Notes under the pieces: generated by a model
What the model was told of the DNA's origin: nothing
The model's database searches: none
Seen by the model: the letters and a program-made list of their open reading frames with translations, nothing else
Part shown: positions 4,048 to 64,000 of the stretch, piece by piece
Position numbering within the stretch: position 1 is the first letter of the stretch
Layout: each line of letters starts with the position of its first letter
IMG/VR virus record: IMGVR_UViG_3300014205_000170
Location: 454,810-518,809 of that record
Source of the DNA: a virus
Lineage: Duplodnaviria > Caudoviricetes
Length of the DNA: 64,000 bases
Direction: 5' to 3' (one strand)
Position numbers and translations under genes: made by a program

Positions 4048-4120
4048 GTTGATGTAGCATATTGCGAATGCGTCGCCCTGAACAAGCGAAGAGTAACAGG
4101 TTCAATTCCTTTCGTCAACA
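4048..4120 (+). tRNA. atypical tRNA-Phe(GAA)
   Basis: GTTGATG/CGTCAAC acceptor, GCAT/ATGC D-stem, loop CTGAACA, T-loop TTCAATT; C31.A39 mismatch, bulged T-stem, no encoded CCA. Confidence 0.75.
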
Positions 4121-4125
4121 CAAAC

Positions 4126-4205
4126 GTGGATGTAGCTTATAATACATTAAAGTGCTGGCCTGAAAAACCAGAGAATGGTAAGTTTGTATCTTCCCATCCA
4201 CACCA
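4126..4205 (+). tRNA. atypical tRNA-Phe(GAA)
   Basis: GTGGATG/CATCCAC acceptor plus ACCA, loop CTGAAAA; C31.A39 mismatch, bulged T-stem, deviant T-loop TTTGTAT. Confidence 0.7.
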
Positions 4206-4216
4206 ATTAAGAATAT

Positions 4217-4313
4217 GGCAAGGTAGCTCAGTGGTGGTTCTCTGCAAAGAGAATCTTTAAGAGCAATGCCCTGAAAAAGCATGAGTCGGAGTGTTCGATT
4301 CCTCCTCTTGCCA
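4217..4313 (+). tRNA. atypical tRNA-Phe(GAA) with an extra hairpin in the D-loop
   Basis: GGCAAGG/TCTTGCC acceptor; GCTC/GAGC D-stem enclosing GGTTCTCT-GCAA-AGAGAATC; loop CTGAAAA; T-loop TTCGATT. Confidence 0.75.
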
Positions 4314-17700: not shown

Positions 17701-18361
17701 TTTTTTTTTCAATTATTACTTTTCTTTTACCATCAAAAGAATCGGTCCAGTATTCCATAATTCCATCACCATTCATAAAAAAATCCTCTTTTAGATTATT
17801 TAAATCTGTTGTGGTAATTATAAATTTACTTTTATTTGAAGTGGGATTAAAACAACACATAAAAGATTGAATTAAGTCATCGTAATTATCATTAAAACCT
17901 AATTCGGAAATATAAATAAAATCAAGTAAATAACCTCTCCCAGCATCGCGTTGTTTTTTTGTCCAATACTGTATTTTGGAATGATTAGAAAATTCTGTGA
18001 ATTTTTGATTGTGTTTTTCTGGAGTAAGAATTGTATTTTCTAAACCTTGTGAATGGAATATCTGTTCTAAAACATGTAAGTTTCCATTAATTAATTGTCT
18101 TAAAGTTTGAATTTCTTGATGTGAACTTGCTATAACTCCTACTTTAAATTTTGGATTTACAATGACTTTCCACAAAATATATAAAGACATTGCAAAACTT
18201 ACTCCTTCTTGTCTTTGTTTATAAACAATGGTATATTTATTTTTTTCCAAAAAGGAAAGAAAATTTCTTTGTGCCAATGATAAACGAATGAAATTTGACT
18301 CTTCTACTAAAGAATGATTTAAGGAAACATCTAATAATTTACAAAAATCATGAAATTCCAT
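17681..18361 (-). CDS. degenerate terminase large-subunit ATPase-domain homolog
   Basis: TIVYKQRQEGVS (cf. KSRQxGxS), EFSNHSKI, AGRGYLLDFIYISE (Walker B D changed to S), IITTT; no nuclease domain. Confidence 0.6.
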   Translation of the reverse strand: MEFHDFCKLLDVSLNHSLVEESNFIRLSLAQRNFLSFLEKNKYTIVYKQRQEGVSFAMSLYILWKVIVNPKFKVGVIASSHQEIQTLRQLINGNLHVLEQIFHSQGLENTILTPEKHNQKFTEFSNHSKIQYWTKKQRDAGRGYLLDFIYISELGFNDNYDDLIQSFMCCFNPTSNKSKFIITTTDLNNLKEDFFMNGDGIMEYWTDSFDGKRKVIIEKKITKYKF

Positions 18362-20811: not shown

Positions 20812-21173
20812 GGGTTCGACCGGTTTTGACAGTGAGCGCAATTTAAAAATAAGCATGTAGTGTGTTGTGAATATGACACTTTAATCTTAACTCTCAAATT
20901 TTATCTGGCGAAACTTTCGCTATGGCTGCTTAATAAACTCAGTTTATTTCAGTCGTTGTAAGCCTTATAGCACTCTTGCTTCGCGATAAGTGTCTTGCAT
21001 TATAAAAGAGCAAGTTATTTTAGTGATGATATTAACTAAAATAATAAAAATATCTAAGTTGAAATTTGGTTTGATTTTATGCCTGGTTTTAATCGAAAAT
21101 TAAATAAATTCTAAACATGTAGAAGGTTTTTAAATTCCTTATTTGGACGAGGGTTCGAATCCCTCCGAATCCA
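20812..21173 (+). ncRNA. ssrA: tmRNA (one-piece), tag (A)GETFAMAA
   Basis: GGGTTCG/CGAATCC acceptor with G3.U70; ACCGGTTTTGAC 5' motif; tag ORF 20907-20933; 3' GGAC-GAGGG TTCGAAT CCCTC; no encoded CCA. Confidence 0.93.
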
Positions 21174-21184
21174 CAAATTGATTG

Positions 21185-38334: not shown

Positions 38335-38930
38335 CCGGGAAATTAGAATTCACTCAATTATTTAATCCAATAAAATTATTTACCGAAGAAGGAGAAGTAA
38401 ATTTATGGGATTTTTATCATAATTTATTTACAGAATTAAATGATAAAAAAACTTCCATGACCATGGAAATGAATAAGCTTATAATACATTCAAATTTAGA
38501 ATCAGAATTTTCTTTAGAATATAAAAATGACGAAAAATCAAAACTTATCATTTTAAAGAAGATAGATGGGTTTGGATTTTCTAACATAGGTTCATATTTA
38601 CCAGACATGCTACAAAGATTAAATGGTAGAAAAATTATTGTTACCATATTAGAAGAAGGTATTTCTATTGAAAACGACTCAGAAGAAAAAGTATTTGAAT
38701 TGTATTATACTAATGGTAATTCTTGTGCTATTCCGGAAGACAAAATAAAAACCTTATGTAAAATAGGAACAAATGATACTTGTATTTTTTGTACAGTATC
38801 TTCTGTTGGTTTTGAATGCGCGAAATTTGATTCCTACATGGCTAGACAATTGCTTTATAGATATTCTGAAGGAACAATGAATGCCTCAAGAATTGGTAAT
38901 TGTGCAATTGTAGGAAGAAAAGAAAATTAA
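38316..38930 (+). CDS. hypothetical protein with Cys-rich C-terminus
   Basis: 204-aa ORF; CKIG..CIFC..FECAK. Confidence 0.6.
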   Translation: MDKKILAGKLEFTQLFNPIKLFTEEGEVNLWDFYHNLFTELNDKKTSMTMEMNKLIIHSNLESEFSLEYKNDEKSKLIILKKIDGFGFSNIGSYLPDMLQRLNGRKIIVTILEEGISIENDSEEKVFELYYTNGNSCAIPEDKIKTLCKIGTNDTCIFCTVSSVGFECAKFDSYMARQLLYRYSEGTMNASRIGNCAIVGRKEN

Positions 38931-40462
38931 ATACCTTTTAATTTAATTAAAAAATTCTCTGTTTCTCTTCTTTCAATTTCATCTCCTAGTGCTTTGCCAG
39001 TAAATCCTTTATCAATTAATTCTTTACTATTAATACTTAATTTAAAATTCAAAAAAGTATTTACGAACTTTGGATTCATTTGCATCCATTGAGAAAATGT
39101 CAGTATTTCTGAATTAGAAAGTTTGGAATTTTGTTGAGCCTTTTTTAGTTTTATAACATTTTCAGAATTAAGAGAATAAAAGTGTTTTAAAAATGAAATC
39201 TGAGTAATCTCATCAACAGAATATTTCAATTGATTTAATTGTTTTTTTAATTTTTCAGAATCATTATCTATTAATAAATAAGCTAACAAGACAGGAATAA
39301 TTCTTTCTTCTATAAAATCTTCTTTATAATTAAGTCCTTTAAAAACCCAATCGAATAATTTATATTTTTGAATTAAATTCAAAAAATGAACAACAGATTT
39401 AGCGGATTTTATACCTTTAATAAATTCATCTCTTATTCTTTCGGCAGAAACATTTGAGGTTGCAGAAACAGTATCTCCCATTTGCAATTCTGGAAACCCA
39501 CCCAATCTACTATCTTTTTGTAAAGCAGCATCCACAGAAGGGTCTAAATCAGAACCAAATCTAGCAGCGAATCGAACTGCTCTCATAATTCTTAAGCGGT
39601 CTTCATTAAATCTATCTTCGGCACTTCCTACTGTTTTAACAATACCTTTTTTCAAATCAGATACTCCACCTACAAGGTCAACAATTTCTTGTTTATCTAT
39701 ATCATAAAATAAAGCATTAATAGTTAAGTCTCGTCTTAATACATCTTGGTCAATAGTTGTAAATTCTACTGAGTCTGGACGACGACCTGCTCCAATATCT
39801 TTTCTAAAAGTTGCAATTTCATATTCTCCACTTGGAGTTAAAACATTTATAATACCAAAAACCTTACCGGTTTCTAATGTTTTATAAAATGGAGAAACAA
39901 CTCCTTGAACAATATCAGGTAAAGCATCTGTTGCTAAATCGTAATCTTTTGGTTCTTTTCCTAAAAGAGCATCTCGAACAGCTCCGCCAACAACAAATAA
40001 TTTATATCCCTTTTGCTTTAAAAGATTTTTAATTTTTAAAATATCTTCTGGAATAGGAATGTTGAATTTAATTCTAACTTCTTCTTCTTTTAAAAGACTC
40101 TTCTTTAAAATTTGTCTTACTTCTTGCCTTATTTTTTTTTCGTTGCTCAAGTGTTTTTTCCAATTATCTAATGTTCCTATCATGTATTCTCTAACACCAC
40201 TACTATTAGCGGAATGAACTTTGTAGTCTGTATTTCGTATATCTAGTTCTTTTTCAAATACTATCCATTTAACAGCATCTTTACCTTCTTCTAGATTTTC
40301 TCCTAAATCATTATCAAAACTAACATATGAAGGAGCTCCATTTTTATTAATAAATTCTTTGAATTCAGTTAAATTTCGAGCTATTATCCAACTATTATTA
40401 TCTGTTTTTGGATAAATATCAGTTGGCATTCTGATGTCGTCTAAAAAAATCTTATAATCCAT
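38927..40462 (-). CDS. cca: cyclic-phosphate-processing receiver domain fused to a CCA-adding tRNA nucleotidyltransferase
   Basis: IFLDDIRMP..SFDNDLG..VHSAN; VGGAVRDALLG..KDYDLAT, EIATFR, RRDLTINAL, EDRLRIMRAVRF, SAERI; start moved to MDYKIF. Confidence 0.88.
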   Translation of the reverse strand: MDYKIFLDDIRMPTDIYPKTDNNSWIIARNLTEFKEFINKNGAPSYVSFDNDLGENLEEGKDAVKWIVFEKELDIRNTDYKVHSANSSGVREYMIGTLDNWKKHLSNEKKIRQEVRQILKKSLLKEEEVRIKFNIPIPEDILKIKNLLKQKGYKLFVVGGAVRDALLGKEPKDYDLATDALPDIVQGVVSPFYKTLETGKVFGIINVLTPSGEYEIATFRKDIGAGRRPDSVEFTTIDQDVLRRDLTINALFYDIDKQEIVDLVGGVSDLKKGIVKTVGSAEDRFNEDRLRIMRAVRFAARFGSDLDPSVDAALQKDSRLGGFPELQMGDTVSATSNVSAERIRDEFIKGIKSAKSVVHFLNLIQKYKLFDWVFKGLNYKEDFIEERIIPVLLAYLLIDNDSEKLKKQLNQLKYSVDEITQISFLKHFYSLNSENVIKLKKAQQNSKLSNSEILTFSQWMQMNPKFVNTFLNFKLSINSKELIDKGFTGKALGDEIERRETENFLIKLKGI

Positions 40463-61253: not shown

Positions 61254-61256
61254 ATT

Positions 61257-61288
61257 GTACTATACGGTTTAAAAGGATTTTACGTTAC
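61257..61288 (-). promoter_or_regulatory. ECF-sigma-like promoter GTAAC-N17-CGTATAGTAC
   Basis: one of six copies with identical spacing. Confidence 0.8.
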
Positions 61289-61290
61289 AG

Positions 61291-61611
61291 TTATTCGTTA
61301 CCTAAATTTTCTAATGTGCTGGCGAAGTTTTGTTTGGCTTCATTAAAGCAATTATCTATTATTTTATTTTTCTCTATTGTTAAAGTAACCTCATTGAGTT
61401 TATTTAAAAGGTTTCCTATGTGTTCAGCAAATTTTGTTAAAAAAGGTTCAGCACATGAAGGATGATAATTAGAGATAGCGGTATAGCCTCCATTAACATG
61501 AGCTATACTAACGATTAAATCTTTTTCTATGAGCTTTTTCTCACACGCTTTGCACTTAGCTGTTTTGTAAGTATTTTGTTCAGTCCAAATGTTAAAAGGC
61601 AATCCGTTCAT
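61291..61611 (-). CDS. PARP-type zinc-finger-like protein
   Basis: AKCKACEKKL...YHPSC. Confidence 0.55.
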   Translation of the reverse strand: MNGLPFNIWTEQNTYKTAKCKACEKKLIEKDLIVSIAHVNGGYTAISNYHPSCAEPFLTKFAEHIGNLLNKLNEVTLTIEKNKIIDNCFNEAKQNFASTLENLGNE

Positions 61612-61630
61612 GGTGTGTAGTTTAGTTTAT

Positions 61631-61662
61631 GTACTATACGGAATTTAAAACATTGAAGTTAC
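61631..61662 (-). promoter_or_regulatory. ECF-sigma-like promoter GTAAC-N17-CGTATAGTAC
   Basis: exact motif; divergent from the copy at 61696. Confidence 0.8.
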
Positions 61663-61695
61663 AGTAAGGATATATCAAATTTAAGTTAAGTAGGT

Positions 61696-61727
61696 GTAAC
61701 ATACTAATAGAATTTTACGTATAGTAC
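61696..61727 (+). promoter_or_regulatory. ECF-sigma-like promoter GTAAC-N17-CGTATAGTAC
   Basis: exact motif. Confidence 0.8.
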
Positions 61728-61752
61728 TGTATAACCAATAAACAAAGAAACC

Positions 61753-62295
61753 ATGCAAGAGAACGTTAAAAAATTAGTAGAAATGTTAAGTACAATGAAA
61801 ATTGGCTTTATCGCTGTTAATCGTTATGAGAACATTGAAGGTGAAAAAAGCAAGCGTCGTATTAACATCGGTTTCAGCTATGAAAACCTAAAAAAGTCTG
61901 ACCTTAAAACATTAACTGAGGGGGTTGAGTTTATCCCTTCGGACAAGTACACACAAGCCGATTGGAACGTAGCTATTGCTGAATTGAAGCAGTCATTGAT
62001 TGAACCAAGTAAAACACGTTCTGAGGCTCAAAGTAATGCGTATTTGAGTTTAACAGAGAACAATGCTGTTCGCTACAATTACGAAACACAAGAACTTTAC
62101 ATTATGGGTATTGAACTTGATGGAAGCAAATTTGTAACCGAGGAAGGAACAAAGAAAACTGTAAAATCCGCACCAAAGACCATTGCAAAGAACGTTATTA
62201 GACGTGAGTATTTAAAATCAGGTCTTATCCGTAACTTTAAGGTAAAGAATATCGGAGAGGTGAAATTGAAAGGTGAGGAAATTGAGTTAGGGTAA
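61753..62295 (+). CDS. hypothetical phage protein
   Basis: 180-aa ORF with codon usage suggesting high expression (CGT, GGT, AAC). Confidence 0.7.
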   Translation: MQENVKKLVEMLSTMKIGFIAVNRYENIEGEKSKRRINIGFSYENLKKSDLKTLTEGVEFIPSDKYTQADWNVAIAELKQSLIEPSKTRSEAQSNAYLSLTENNAVRYNYETQELYIMGIELDGSKFVTEEGTKKTVKSAPKTIAKNVIRREYLKSGLIRNFKVKNIGEVKLKGEEIELG

Positions 62296-62332
62296 AATCC
62301 TAATATATCGGCAACTAAGAGGGGAGGTGTGT

Positions 62333-62364
62333 GTAACATTCTCCCTTTTTTATTCGTATAGTAC
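62333..62364 (+). promoter_or_regulatory. ECF-sigma-like promoter overlapping a terminator hairpin
   Basis: exact motif; the -35 box lies inside a GGGAG...CTCCC-T-run hairpin. Confidence 0.8.
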
Positions 62365-62367
62365 TGT

Positions 62368-62610
62368 ATGAGCGATGAGAAGCACATAAATAAAAAGAAG
62401 GTTATCATTGAGAAAATTAATGAGAAGCGTTTGGCTTATGAGATTGAGAAGTTGAAACGTTTGAGGGTGCGTAAAACTAAAAGGAAAATAAAACGTGCTG
62501 AGAACAAAAAATACAATTTTAGTAATGCAACATGGTATGAGGATGGTAAATGTATGCAAAATTGTGAAATGGGAGGTACTTGTGGATTCCCATGTAATGG
62601 AGATTGTTAA
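62368..62610 (+). CDS. small basic protein, KKVIIEK motif, Cys-rich C-terminus
   Basis: CEMGGTCGFPCNGDC. Confidence 0.6.
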   Translation: MSDEKHINKKKVIIEKINEKRLAYEIEKLKRLRVRKTKRKIKRAENKKYNFSNATWYEDGKCMQNCEMGGTCGFPCNGDC

Positions 62611-62616
62611 TGATAT

Positions 62617-62674
62617 GGCGTATTAGCTAAGTGGTATAGCAGCAAAGTCGGGTGTTCGATTCACTCATACGCTA
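62617..62674 (+). ncRNA. tRNA-like RNA with no anticodon arm
   Basis: GGCGTAT/ATACGCT-A acceptor; D-arm GCTA AGTGGTA TAGC; only AGCAAAGTC before the T-arm GGGTG TTCGATT CACTC. Confidence 0.75.
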
Positions 62675-62689
62675 CAAATAAATTAAACA

Positions 62690-63025
62690 ATGCTTAAAAA
62701 AGTAATTATAAAGTTTCTATTGTATTTCATTTTGCCATGTGCAATAGGTTTTGCTTTTAGAACAAACATTTACCTGTTCATTAATTTGATTTTATTGTAT
62801 GCTATCACAATATTCATTATTAATCTTGATAACCGCAAATGGAAATTTAGGTGGATTAATGAATACAAAAAAAGAGACAATTACGATATTCATATTACCC
62901 CAGTCATCACTTTCAATCAAACCACAATAAACAATGAATTGGGGAGCGGTGTCTCTCATGCTATTGCCTTGGAGTGGTTATGTTTTGCAGTAGCTATTAT
63001 GCGTTACAAAGTTAAACCAATATAG
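62690..63025 (+). CDS. membrane protein
   Basis: two N-terminal TM helices. Confidence 0.55.
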   Translation: MLKKVIIKFLLYFILPCAIGFAFRTNIYLFINLILLYAITIFIINLDNRKWKFRWINEYKKRDNYDIHITPVITFNQTTINNELGSGVSHAIALEWLCFAVAIMRYKVKPI

Positions 63026-63026
63026 T

Positions 63027-63058
63027 GTAACGTCTCCCTATTAAAAATCGTATAGTAC
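63027..63058 (+). promoter_or_regulatory. ECF-sigma-like promoter GTAAC-N17-CGTATAGTAC
   Basis: exact motif. Confidence 0.8.
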
Positions 63059-63221
63059 CTTATAACAAAAACCAAAACACATGATACAACAAAGAAAAAG
63101 CATTACAATGCCAACATTACAAGAGTATAACAACAGCCGCTTATTGGCTTGTGATATTGTAACCGGACGAGAGTTCCGTAGAATGAAAAGAAAAGGTTTA
63201 ATCTCACCAATTTATTAAGCT

Positions 63222-63425
63222 ATGAACGAACTAAACGATTCAACAATGCACATGCTTGGTTATTTGGATGATAGCCAATGGAGGGATGCTGCTATGGCTT
63301 TAGATGGCAAAGAAGAAAAACAAGAACTATTGGAATTGGCAAAGAAGGTAGATGAAAGATATAAAACCAATTTTGCCAAGGTGGTACAAAATGTTTATAA
63401 TGGAGTAAAAGAAACCGAAGAATAA
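63222..63425 (+). CDS. hypothetical protein
   Basis: 67-aa ORF. Confidence 0.55.
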   Translation: MNELNDSTMHMLGYLDDSQWRDAAMALDGKEEKQELLELAKKVDERYKTNFAKVVQNVYNGVKETEE

Positions 63426-63444
63426 TAAAACAAAAAAACAAACT

Positions 63445-63630
63445 ATGAGATTTGATATTCATCGCAGAAACAGAGTAAGCAGTAGTAGAAAAGGTCATAC
63501 CTCTTTTGATTCTTTGAAAGACCTTTTACATAAGGAGCGTAATGGTAAATACCTCAATCCAGTTGAAAAGGCTGAATTGAAAAGATATGCCGAGCAACAA
63601 CGAAGGAAAAAGACGGCAAGGAAACATTAA
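63445..63630 (+). CDS. small basic protein
   Basis: 61-aa ORF. Confidence 0.5.
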   Translation: MRFDIHRRNRVSSSRKGHTSFDSLKDLLHKERNGKYLNPVEKAELKRYAEQQRRKKTARKH

Positions 63631-63655
63631 CTATTTAGAAAGGAGACTTACAAGT

Positions 63656-63687
63656 GTAACGTCTCCTTTTTTAATTTCGTATAGTAC
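63656..63687 (+). promoter_or_regulatory. ECF-sigma-like promoter overlapping a terminator hairpin
   Basis: exact motif; the -35 box is in the loop of AAGGAGAC/GTCTCCTT followed by a T run. Confidence 0.8.
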
Positions 63688-63690
63688 GTT

Positions 63691-63864
63691 ATGATAAAAA
63701 CAAGTAGATTATTTTGGGATTGTGAATGTACTGGAAACAATGAGTATATTCATTCAAAAAAACAAACCAAGTGTTTAAAATGCGGAACCTTTCATTTTGA
63801 ACAACCTGATTCTCGTCCCGAAGAAATACGTTTATATTTATCTACTTTAACTTTAAAGTCATAA
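63691..63864 (+). CDS. 57-aa Zn-ribbon protein (not in the ORF track)
   Basis: FWDCEC..YIHSK..CLKCG..QPDSR; ATG 3 nt after the promoter motif. Confidence 0.6.
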   Translation: MIKTSRLFWDCECTGNNEYIHSKKQTKCLKCGTFHFEQPDSRPEEIRLYLSTLTLKS

Positions 63865-64000
63865 CAAATGGAAGCATACTACAACCCTTATTCTTTTATG
63901 TCTAACGACATTGTTGCTTGGAACGGTATTCTTACCAGCTTCGGAGCAATTGCACACTTAACCGCTGATGGAGATTCATTACGAATGGCCAATGAGGAAG

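What the first reader, a model, noticed from the sequence alone, without database searches (positions are those of the whole stretch)
62617..62674. 58-nt tRNA with the anticodon arm cleanly deleted
Seen: a 7-bp acceptor stem, U8-A9, a canonical D-arm with GG, a canonical T-arm (TTCGATT) and A73, but only 9 nt (AGCAAAGTC) between the D- and T-arms. All remaining stems are intact, which argues against random decay. It lies in the ECF-promoter (early-type) region. Inference: a tRNA elbow/acceptor mimic that cannot decode and cannot be cut by anticodon nucleases. It could be a decoy for tRNA-targeting defences or uncharged-tRNA sensors, an amino-acid donor for non-ribosomal transfer, or an RNase P/Z processing signal.
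Basis: partly seen in the sequence, partly recalled or inferred. Interest (0 to 1): 0.7.

Follow-up and report, generated by a model that had tools for sequence, protein, structure and literature searches.

The report
Armless tRNA mimic paired with protein
The 58-base tRNA without an anticodon arm is a real, conserved phage RNA gene that always travels with one small basic cysteine-rich protein gene, so it is an undescribed RNA-protein pair and not a decayed tRNA; related armless tRNA look-alikes occur in many other phages.

Summary
Window 62617-62674 (+) scores 44.2 bits on Rfam tRNA. Acceptor, D and T arms are intact, and 9 nt replace position 26, the anticodon arm and the variable loop.

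It is not decay:
- Every relative found carries the same armless layout, with compensatory changes in all three stems.
- Its flanks (T at -1, A73 then CAA) match those of the genome's genuine tRNAs.
- It is more conserved than the neighbouring coding DNA.

The main new result is linkage. The element lies 6 nt after the stop of an 80-aa protein: a long basic helix plus a variable Cys knuckle, with no Pfam or PHROG family. Starting from the RNA, at least 44 of 47 metagenomic loci have this gene just upstream. Starting from the protein, 8 of 8 contigs have the RNA just downstream. Six complete phage genomes (108-519 kb) each hold exactly one of each.

Armless tRNA look-alikes (modal 58 nt) are also widespread inside late operons and tRNA clusters of unrelated phages. 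Two cultured phages carry them, annotated "tRNA-OTHER" (marked pseudo) or as an unnamed tRNA. Earlier notes of this scan reported similar RNAs in other phages.

Function is inferred: a processed, non-decoding tRNA mimic acting with its partner protein. No expression data were available.

The parts
62331..62366 (+). Promoter-like motif TGTAAC-N17-CGTATAGTAC. The ATG of ORF80 follows 3 nt later, so the mRNA has a very short leader or none.
   Evidence: There are four + strand and two - strand copies of the motif in 61256-63694. The same motif lies upstream of the ORF80 homologue (about 30 nt before its ATG) and directly abuts the RNA in the 364.7-kb phage G003. Activity was not tested.
62368..62610 (+). 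ORF80: a small basic protein with a conserved N-terminal basic region (the homologues' M-AKDK..Y.AE.LRR...RK.KRK motif; this copy has 13 extra N-terminal residues and keeps it only loosely) and a C-terminal Cys-rich knuckle ending ...PCNGDC. It is the partner gene of the RNA.
   Evidence: Homologues share 64-77% identity. Alignments A2 and A3 hold 12 and 39 members. AlphaFold gives pLDDT 84.9, with a helix at residues 3-53 and a small three-strand unit. There is no Pfam or PHROG family. It is single-copy in the genome. Against its relatives, 13-19 of the last 52 codons differ synonymously and 10-13 change the amino acid.
62617..62674 (+). 58-nt anticodon-armless tRNA-like RNA gene: acceptor 62617-62623 / 62667-62673; U8 A9 62624-62625; D arm 62626-62640; connector 62641-62649; T arm 62650-66; discriminator A73 at 62674.
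   Evidence: Rfam tRNA scores 44.2 bits. The subfamily covariance model R1 scores 74.8 bits, and this is the only such hit in the genome. Covariation in alignment A1: 96.4% of cells paired, 10 of 16 pairs changed on both sides, 0 of 500 shuffles as high.
62611..62616 (+). 6-nt spacer TGATAT between the ORF80 stop and the RNA. T at -1 is the expected RNase P leader residue.
   Evidence: 41 of 51 genuine tRNAs of this genome have T at -1. The spacer is 3-22 nt in relatives.
62675..62689 (+). 3' trailer CAAATAAATTAAACA. C74 and then AA match the trailer rule of this phage's tRNAs. No CCA is encoded.
   Evidence: 50 of 51 tRNAs in the genome have C74, and 36 of 51 have N73-CAA. C74 is invariant in the 14 members of the subfamily alignment.
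62690..63025 (+). ORF111, a hydrophobic small protein in the same transcription unit by position. It is not a conserved part of the module.
   Evidence: ORF list. Downstream genes differ or are absent in relatives, and some cassettes end in a terminator.
38927..40462 (-). Phage CCA-adding enzyme fused to a cyclic-phosphate-processing receiver domain. It is a candidate for completing the RNA's 3' end (inference only).
   Evidence: Pfam PolyA_pol 7e-34, cREC_REC 2.3e-18.

Best explanation
The element is a functional gene for a non-decoding tRNA mimic, and it forms a two-part module with the gene just upstream.

Proposed course of events:
1. The promoter-like site at 62331 drives a transcript that carries ORF80 and then the RNA.
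2. Host RNase P cuts between 62616 and 62617.
3. The 3' end is matured at A73-C74 in the same way as the phage's own tRNAs and is completed to CCA, possibly by the phage CCA-adding enzyme.
4. The result is an RNA of 58-61 nt that keeps the acceptor/T minihelix, the D arm and the D-loop/T-loop elbow. Two or three nucleotides stand where the anticodon stem-loop would be, so it cannot read a codon.
5. ORF80, a 50-residue basic helix plus a small Cys knuckle, most likely binds this RNA.
6. The pair acts in trans early in infection on a host or phage factor that recognises the acceptor/elbow half of tRNA.

My leading guess for the last step is that the pair titrates or blocks a tRNA-end-directed host factor, either a defence or a translation factor.

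Shown: the structure, conservation, covariation, tRNA-type flanks, gene linkage and one-to-one copy number.
Inferred: processing, protein-RNA binding and the target.
For: 1. Structure and score.

2. Orthologues keep the armless form. Contigs L127, L128 and L129 were found only through ORF80 homologues (64-77% identity). They carry a 58-nt element 3-8 nt after the stop, with connector AGCAAAGTC or AGAAAAGTC and compensatory changes at pairs 5:68, 6:67, 13:22, 49:65 and 52:62. Against L128 the RNA is 53/58 identical, while the last 52 codons of the ORF are 75% identical.

3. Covariation in 14 subfamily members: 96.4% of cells paired, 10 of 16 pairs with double changes, 41 such cells, 0 of 500 shuffles as high. 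Slid controls pair at only 40-59%.

4. Flanks match this genome's real tRNAs: T at -1 in 41 of 51, C74 in 50 of 51, and N73-CAA in 36 of 51. The element has all three.

5. Linkage starting from the RNA: of 47 metagenomic elements found by an RNA pattern alone, 42 have an ORF80-family HMM hit ending 3-22 nt upstream. Two more are cut by a contig end but keep a family C-terminal motif. Two others have the family gene one ORF further upstream.

6. Linkage starting from the protein: 8 of 8 contigs carry the element.

7. Copy number: the six complete genomes examined hold exactly one high-scoring RNA each (66-76 bits, against 43 bits or less for ordinary tRNAs). The family gene next to it is single-copy in the five genomes searched for it; in G002 only the adjacent copy was seen.

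8. The RNA does not have to abut the ORF. G003 has an inserted ORF plus a second promoter-like motif directly at the RNA's 5' end. G004 and the L013 type have an inserted ORF. L133 and L173 have a terminator right after the RNA. L127 has no downstream ORF and encodes CCA.

9. Protein model: one long, highly basic helix plus a Cys knuckle, pLDDT 84.9. This shape fits nucleic-acid binding, which is an inference.
Against: - There is no expression, processing or binding evidence of any kind.
- The D arm, T loop and, for the metagenome set, C69-G70-C71, A73 and C74 were fixed by my search patterns. Their conservation in those sets is partly circular. Only the eight protein-first contigs are free of this.
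- Members of alignment A1 taken from viral contigs were pre-filtered for at least 6 of 7 acceptor pairs and 4 of 5 T-stem pairs (two members with 3 of 5 were added by hand), which inflates the percentage paired.
- Strict linkage to one gene is also what a dedicated 3'-end-forming signal shows, as with mascRNA behind MALAT1.
- The folding energy is unremarkable (z = -1.3).
- The protein has no recognisable RNA-binding family and no structural match.
- The target is unknown.
Confidence: 0.55

Rival explanations
1. It is a purely cis-acting processing signal, like a plant-mitochondrial t-element or the mascRNA site of MALAT1. The tRNA shape recruits RNase P and RNase Z to cut the transcript. This sets the 3' end of the ORF80 mRNA and the 5' end of the next cistron. 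The excised RNA is a by-product.
For: - The element fills the gap between two co-oriented ORFs: 6 nt after one stop and 15 nt before the next ATG.
- In unrelated small phages, armless elements sit co-oriented between TerL and portal, upstream of TerS, and between the major capsid and tail-tube genes.
- RNase P is known to process phage and operon RNAs (PMC11143913).
- t-elements define mRNA ends (PMC1920247).
- mascRNA is a 58-nt tRNA-like RNA made this way (PMC11693755; bioRxiv 10.64898/2026.01.19.700226).
Against: - There is only one copy per 108-519-kb genome, always with the same small gene.
- G003 gives the RNA its own promoter-like site. G004 and the L013 type put another ORF between gene and RNA. 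L133 and L173 end in a terminator, and L127 has no downstream gene.
- In the subfamily members whose acceptor stem no search pattern fixed, G2:C71, C3:G70 and G4:C69 are kept and 1:72 is weak or mismatched. The protein-first contigs also keep a full D arm and the G15/C48 partners. A cleavage signal does not obviously need these.
Confidence: 0.2
2. It is a charged or ribosome-directed tRNA mimic. One version: the armless RNA is aminoacylated by a synthetase that ignores the anticodon and serves as a non-ribosomal donor, perhaps acting on the variable Cys-rich C-terminus of ORF80. The other version: with the ORF80 helix standing in for the anticodon arm, it enters the ribosome without a codon, as SmpB-tmRNA does.
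For: - A73, U8-A14, G18, G19 and the T loop are intact.
- For a bacterial LeuRS, A73 and this tertiary core are the critical elements, and deleting the whole anticodon stem-loop lowers affinity only 2.5-fold (PMC2377443).
- The weak 1:72 pair with G2:C71, C3:G70, G4:C69 and A73 resembles the acceptor end of bacterial initiator tRNA (from my own knowledge, not tested).
- The protein family has a conserved N-terminus and a hypervariable Cys-rich C-terminus.
- The window also encodes a tmRNA, a CCA enzyme and other tRNA look-alikes.
Against: - There is no G3:U70, no long variable arm and no G-1, so the best-known anticodon-independent identities (Ala, Ser, His) are absent.
- mascRNA, the closest analogue, is not aminoacylated (PMC11693755).
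- No transferase or synthetase gene is conserved next to the cassette.
Confidence: 0.12
3. It is a neutral relic: a tRNA gene (nearest paralogues are the Phe-like tRNAs) that lost its anticodon arm by deletion and is decaying.
For: The closest sequences in the genome are the Phe-like tRNAs at G000:C1:4818, 17799 and 419903, which share the AGC after the D stem and the T loop TTCGATT. Annotators flag a similar element in Lactobacillus phage 3-SAC12 as a pseudo tRNA.
Against: - The same deletion, with compensatory stem changes, is seen in every relative across protein identities of 22-77%.
- The RNA is more conserved than the adjacent ORF.
- The element is 47% GC in a 30% GC genome.
- The processing flanks are retained.
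- Connector lengths among phage elements are sharply peaked at 8-9 nt rather than spread out.
Confidence: 0.02

Closest known systems
mascRNA / menRNA, the tRNA-like small RNAs cut from the 3' ends of MALAT1 and MEN-beta (PMC11693755; bioRxiv 10.64898/2026.01.19.700226)
   Same: Both are about 58 nt. Both have an acceptor stem, a T arm and a D-loop/T-loop elbow, and neither decodes. Both lie directly behind one particular upstream transcript. mascRNA is released by RNase P and RNase Z and then given CCA; the same route is inferred here.
   Different: mascRNA is eukaryotic. It keeps an anticodon-like stem with a compact loop, has a reduced D arm and lacks the tRNA linker residues. The phage RNA has a full canonical D arm and variable-loop residues and no anticodon stem at all. 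There was no Rfam hit to the mascRNA family in the permissive scan. Its upstream partner is a protein gene, not a lncRNA.
Plant mitochondrial t-elements (PMC1920247)
   Same: Both are tRNA-like structures with a conserved T arm embedded beside coding regions. t-elements direct RNase P and RNase Z cuts that make mRNA ends, and some receive non-encoded C or CCA.
   Different: t-elements are dispersed, non-canonical cloverleaves beside various genes. Here there is one copy per genome, always with one gene family, sometimes with its own promoter.
tRNA-like domain of tmRNA with SmpB
   Same: Both are tRNA mimics with an acceptor stem and T arm but no anticodon arm, working with a small basic protein. 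This window's phage also encodes a tmRNA. The comparison rests on established knowledge of trans-translation.
   Different: tmRNA has G3:U70 for alanine, a degenerate D region, pseudoknots and a tag ORF. This RNA has C3:G70, a full D arm and nothing else. ORF80 shows no similarity to SmpB in Pfam.
Phage RNase P substrates and tRNA-cluster stable RNAs: P1/P7 C4 RNA, phi80 M3 RNA (PMC11143913), and T4 RNAs C and D
   Same: All are small phage RNAs matured by the host tRNA-processing machinery without being decoders.
   Different: None is described as a clean anticodon-arm-less cloverleaf, and none is paired with a dedicated protein gene.
YrlA bacterial Y RNAs with Rsr/Ro60 (PMC4201824)
   Same: Both have a D-arm/T-arm tRNA-like module used as a protein-binding or tethering handle, and both occur in some phages.
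   Different: In YrlA the acceptor-like stem continues into a long Ro-binding helix. Here a closed 7-bp acceptor is followed by a discriminator. There was no Rfam YrlA hit, and no Ro gene was seen among the window ORFs scanned with Pfam.

Membership tests
Canonical tRNA (Rfam RF00005) | Score above the family's gathering threshold | tested here: met
   44.2 bits against 29; 44.2 bits in the whole-genome search.
Canonical tRNA (Rfam RF00005) | Acceptor stem, D arm with G18 G19, T arm with a TTCRANY loop, and a discriminator | tested here: met
   all stems are fully paired.
Canonical tRNA (Rfam RF00005) | Anticodon arm: a 5-bp stem and a 7-nt loop carrying an anticodon | tested here: not met
   Only 9 nt lie between the D and T stems. 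Rfam aligns 3 nt in place of 17. It is therefore not a decoding tRNA.
tRNA pseudogene (decaying copy) | The lesion is private to one genome and the stems accumulate unpaired changes in relatives | tested here: not met
   The same architecture is found in all relatives, 96.4% of cells are paired and 10 of 16 pairs show compensatory changes.
tmRNA tRNA-like domain | G3:U70 alanine identity, plus an attached tag ORF and pseudoknots | tested here: not met
   C3:G70 in 12 of 14 members. The molecule is closed at 58 nt. The genome's tmRNA lies elsewhere, at window 20812-21176.
mascRNA-menRNA / t-element type processing mimic | 5' end made by RNase P, 3' end made by RNase Z or trimming, and CCA added after transcription | not testable with these tools
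   Only indirect evidence exists: the flanks equal those of the genome's tRNAs. No RNA run was available.
mascRNA-menRNA (Rfam family) | Sequence and structure match to the family model | tested here: not met
   The permissive Rfam scan of 62400-62900 lists only tRNA and chance-level hits.
New subfamily defined here (model R1 plus the ORF80-family gene) | A 55-61-nt closed three-arm RNA with a 7-12-nt connector, usually G2 C3 G4, a weak 1:72 pair, A73 and C74 | tested here: met
   74.8 bits on R1; alignment A1.
New subfamily defined here (model R1 plus the ORF80-family gene) | An ORF80-family gene on the same strand within about 300 nt upstream, with one of each per genome | tested here: met
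   Own genome: ORF80 ends 6 nt upstream and both are single-copy. The relatives behave the same way.

The most novel reading that the evidence does not exclude
ORF80 and the armless RNA together make a complete two-part tRNA surrogate. The protein's basic helix of about 50 residues stands where the anticodon arm would be, as SmpB does for tmRNA. The particle could then enter a ribosomal site, or bind an initiation or rescue factor, without reading a codon. Its initiator-like acceptor end (weak 1:72, G2 C3 G4, A73) would point to translation initiation or ribosome rescue as the process the phage manipulates early in infection.
Probability: 0.1. Interest if true: 0.9.

Novelty: new variant of a known kind. 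Interest (0 to 1): 0.8.

Why it matters
Non-decoding tRNA mimics are known (the tmRNA tRNA-like domain, mascRNA, t-elements, Y RNAs). A clean anticodon-arm-less cloverleaf encoded by phages was not in any paper my searches found, whether as a one-per-genome partner of a dedicated small protein or as a frequent resident of late operons. Annotation pipelines either miss these elements or label them pseudo-tRNAs.

If the RNA and the protein act together, this is a compact new RNA-protein module. Large Bacteroidota-type phages have kept it across very deep divergence, which implies an important interaction with the tRNA-handling machinery of the host or with a defence that targets it.

The class is directly testable. 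The cassette is about 350 nt. Two cultured phages (Lactobacillus phage 3-SAC12 and Vibrio phage K476) carry armless elements of the wider class. The wider finding also bears on how phage tRNA counts and "pseudo-tRNAs" should be interpreted.

Tried and rejected
- Nucleotide search of 61500-64000 against cultured and GenBank phages found no match.
- An exact-pattern search for the element in viral contigs found none.
- The relatives search with the upstream 180-aa ORF found none.
- The huge phages reached through the CCA enzyme (LR745206.1, LR756502.1, LR756511.1) have no armless subfamily member. Their best R1 hits are ordinary 71-73-nt tRNAs.
- BLAST of the 58-mer against phage records gave only half-tRNA matches for my element. 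The L009 query led to the Vibrio K476 element, and also to a Salmonella Skatevirus site that lacks a proper acceptor stem, which I dropped.
- Flank queries around L022, L009 and L019 found no cultured phage with the same locus. One of them led by chance to Lactobacillus phage 3-SAC12.
- Sequencing runs: no RNA holder is listed. A groundwater run holds only one 151-nt contig, identical to 62689-62839, which does not cover the element.
- The ORF80 model has no PDB fold match at E <= 0.001.
- Stop-codon readthrough or recoding stimulated by the structure was considered and dropped. TAA is followed in frame by TGA, and spacers vary from 3 to 22 nt.
- An attP or integration relic was considered and dropped. 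Both tRNA halves are present, and no integrase gene showed up among the recurrent neighbours of the elements.
- A type III toxin-antitoxin reading was considered and dropped. The gene order and the RNA type do not fit.
- A RiPP-precursor reading of ORF80 (conserved leader, variable Cys core) was considered. It is kept only inside the second rival, because the leader is an extremely basic long helix and no maturase gene is linked.

Full report
**What is there**

Window 62617-62674 (+) reads, in order: a 7-bp acceptor (GGCGTAT/ATACGCT, with G1-U72 a wobble), U8 A9, a D arm GCTA-AGTGGTA-TAGC, nine nucleotides AGCAAAGTC, a T arm GGGTG-TTCGATT-CACTC, and A73. Rfam's tRNA model aligns it end to end, with the 17-nt anticodon arm replaced by 3 nt. 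The score is 44.2 bits against a gathering score of 29, with E 3e-8. ARAGORN and the fast 64-kb Rfam scan miss it. The lowest-energy fold is exactly this three-arm shape, but the energy is not exceptional (z = -1.3). The nine nucleotides read naturally as position 26, a 3-nt turn, and a five-base variable loop ending in C48, the partner of G15. The anticodon stem-loop is therefore excised cleanly at the 26/44 junction (my reading of the sequence).

**Genome and reliability**

The window is the last 64 kb of a 518,809-bp IMG/VR virus record. The record has a 123-bp terminal overlap, 30% GC, about 55 tRNA-model hits and a tmRNA. An independent Logan assembly of a landfill-metagenome run, probably the source sample, spans 61700-63700 without a single difference, at depth of about 171. 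This rules out an assembly slip.

**Not a relic**

I reached relatives through the neighbouring protein, not through the RNA.
- ORF80 (62368-62610) has homologues at 64-77% identity. All three of their contigs that could be read (L127, L128, L129) carry a 58-nt element 3-8 nt after the stop. The connector is the same or differs by one base. The stems differ by compensatory pairs, for example A13-U22 against C13-G22, U5-A68 against A5-U68, and U52-A62 against G52-C62.
- Five more distant family members, picked from a profile search, gave the same result. One of them has a weakened acceptor top.
- In a 14-member alignment, 96.4% of pair cells are standard pairs, 10 of 16 pairs show changes on both sides, and no shuffle in 500 reaches these values. 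Sliding the partners drops pairing to 40-59%. A caveat applies: members taken from viral contigs had been filtered for paired stems, and my search pattern fixed their D arm and T loop.
- Against L128 the RNA is 53/58 identical, while the last 52 codons of the ORF are 75% identical, with many synonymous differences.

**Processing signals**

Of the 51 tRNAs that ARAGORN finds in this genome, 41 have T at -1, 50 have C at position 74, and 36 have N73-CAA. The armless element has T at -1, A73 and CAA. It therefore carries the same flanks as the phage's working tRNAs. This is the best available indirect sign that it goes through the same 5' and 3' maturation. The phage encodes a CCA-adding enzyme fused to a cyclic-phosphate-processing domain. 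No RNA data could be obtained, so processing remains an inference.

**A conserved gene-RNA pair**

The upstream ORFs of all subfamily elements are homologous. They share a conserved basic N-terminal region (M-AKDK..Y.AE.LRR...RK.KRK; looser in the window's own copy, which has 13 extra N-terminal residues) and a hypervariable Cys-rich C-terminus, ending in ...PCNGDC...CAMDI...YGTCQCS...CYCGDGTPYSY and other forms.
- A metagenome scan with an RNA-only pattern gave 47 usable loci. In 42 of them an ORF ending 3-22 nt upstream hits the family HMM. Two more are cut by the contig end but show a family C-terminal motif. In two others the family gene lies one ORF further upstream.
- The six complete phage genomes examined, of 108, 172, 353, 363, 365 and 519 kb, each contain exactly one high-scoring RNA (66-76 bits; ordinary tRNAs score 43 bits or less). 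The family gene lies on the same strand within 300 nt. It is single-copy in the five genomes I searched for it; in the 363-kb genome only the adjacent copy was seen.
- The more distant huge phages LR745206.1, LR756502.1 and LR756511.1 have no such RNA; they were not searched for the protein.
- The protein has no Pfam or PHROG family.
- It belongs to a small family: 83 representatives at 50% identity clustering, nearly all 51-94 aa.
- The model is one long basic helix (residues 3-53) plus a small Cys-bearing three-strand unit, with pLDDT 84.9. It has no PDB fold match.

**Why I favour a trans-acting RNA with a protein partner over a bare cleavage signal**

- In the 365-kb phage (G003), an extra ORF and a second copy of the TGTAAC-N17-CGTATA motif lie between the gene and the RNA. 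The motif directly abuts the RNA's 5' end.
- In G004 and in the L013 type, another ORF is inserted between them.
- In L133 and L173 a terminator follows the RNA. In L127 nothing follows on that strand, and CCA is encoded there.
- There is one copy per genome, always with the same gene. Among the subfamily members whose acceptor no search pattern fixed, G2:C71, C3:G70 and G4:C69 are kept with a weak or mismatched 1:72.

These features are not what a generic punctuation mark needs. Even so, the mascRNA precedent shows that a dedicated processing element can be strictly linked to one transcript, so I keep that rival at 0.2.

**The wider class**

- In 98 of them a 7-bp acceptor (at least 6 of 7 pairs) and a T stem (at least 4 of 5) close around a connector of 6-13 nt. 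The peak is at 8-9 nt and the modal length is 58 nt. There are 77 distinct sequences with many different stems. The chance expectation for such closure is about 0.2% (my calculation, with 0.375 per pair).
- A control scan for connectors of 14-19 nt found few at 14-17 and a second peak at 18-19, where a mini hairpin replaces the anticodon arm. The classes are therefore discrete, not a continuum of deletions.
- In small phages the armless elements lie co-oriented inside late operons: TerS-TerL-element-portal in L009, element-TerS in L019, and major capsid-element-tail tube in the T7-like L022. Others lie in tRNA clusters.
- Two cultured phages carry them. In Lactobacillus phage 3-SAC12 the element is annotated "tRNA-OTHER" and marked pseudo. 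In Vibrio phage K476 it is an unnamed 60-nt tRNA feature with an encoded CCA.
- In one genome per bacterial species (185,579 species), the same pattern found only 27 closed armless elements, several in Lactobacillaceae and one in a Streptococcus; two are identical to viral-contig elements, so at least some are probably prophage-borne.
- For these other families the processing-signal reading may well be the right one. I did not study them further.

**Host hint**

Many cassettes sit a few nucleotides behind TAnnTTTG, the Bacteroidota -7 promoter type (established knowledge). One subfamily element lies on a short contig binned with a Flavobacterium MAG.

**Literature**

Searches for phage tRNA-like RNAs lacking the anticodon arm returned nothing that describes this. 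The nearest analogues are:
- mascRNA (PMC11693755)
- plant mitochondrial t-elements (PMC1920247)
- phage RNase P substrates (PMC11143913)
- YrlA (PMC4201824)

PMC2377443 shows that a bacterial LeuRS charges a tRNA-Leu that lacks its anticodon stem-loop. Charging of this RNA therefore cannot be excluded.

Earlier notes of this scan (e1-3488865, e1-185656) reported anticodon-less tRNA look-alikes in other phages. The kind of RNA has thus been seen before in this scan; the protein partnership has not.

Noticed in passing
G000:C1 whole genome (tRNA clusters at 344-354 kb and 420-431 kb; window 4048-4121): Nearly all tRNA genes of this phage share one flank rule: T at -1 (41 of 51), C at position 74 (50 of 51) and N73-CAA (36 of 51). 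This suggests a uniform 3' maturation route that leaves or uses the first C of CCA.
   Followed up: partly
G000:C1:4818-4892 and 17799-17873 (outside the window, just past the contig junction): Two near-identical Phe-like tRNAs have an 8-nt anticodon loop, read by ARAGORN as the four-base anticodon AGAA. They are the closest paralogues of the armless element.
   Followed up: no
window 4048-4313: Three tandem tRNA-model hits all carry GAA in the anticodon loop. Two are missed by ARAGORN, and one has a large insertion in its D loop. The genome also has two ordinary tRNA-Phe genes.
   Followed up: no
G000:C1 344620, 420793, 421003, 422329, 428161, 429717: tRNAs for Glu, Asn, His, Lys, Trp and Thr are 85-88 nt long, so they carry extra arms or inserts that are unusual for these isotypes.
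   Followed up: no
viral contigs L181-L293: A second discrete class of phage tRNA look-alikes has a connector of 18-19 nt, forming a mini hairpin in place of the anticodon arm. Many of them encode CCA.
   Followed up: partly
genome loci L296-L412 (Chitinophagaceae, Flavobacterium, Spirosoma, Pedobacter and other Bacteroidota): About 60 bacterial chromosomes carry a canonical D arm, a connector such as AACAGAAAAAC and a T arm, but no closing 7-bp acceptor. This is apparently a different, Bacteroidota-wide tRNA-like RNA domain that I did not identify.
   Followed up: no
window 62318-62350: The hairpin closing the previous unit (GAGGGGAGG...CTCCCTTTTTT) carries the TGTAAC box of the next promoter-like site in its loop. 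Terminator and promoter therefore overlap. The consensus terminator scan did not call it.
   Followed up: partly
window 62689-62839: A groundwater metagenome from another study holds a 151-nt contig identical to this stretch. The same or a very close phage therefore occurs outside the landfill sample.
   Followed up: no
L135, L144, L156, L165, L153: In some relatives the cassette is itself flanked by further tRNA or tRNA-like genes, directly upstream of the ORF80-family gene or directly after the armless RNA.
   Followed up: no
L127:3260-4190: About 900 nt without a called gene follow the armless RNA in the 141-kb relative. I did not examine them for further RNAs.
   Followed up: no
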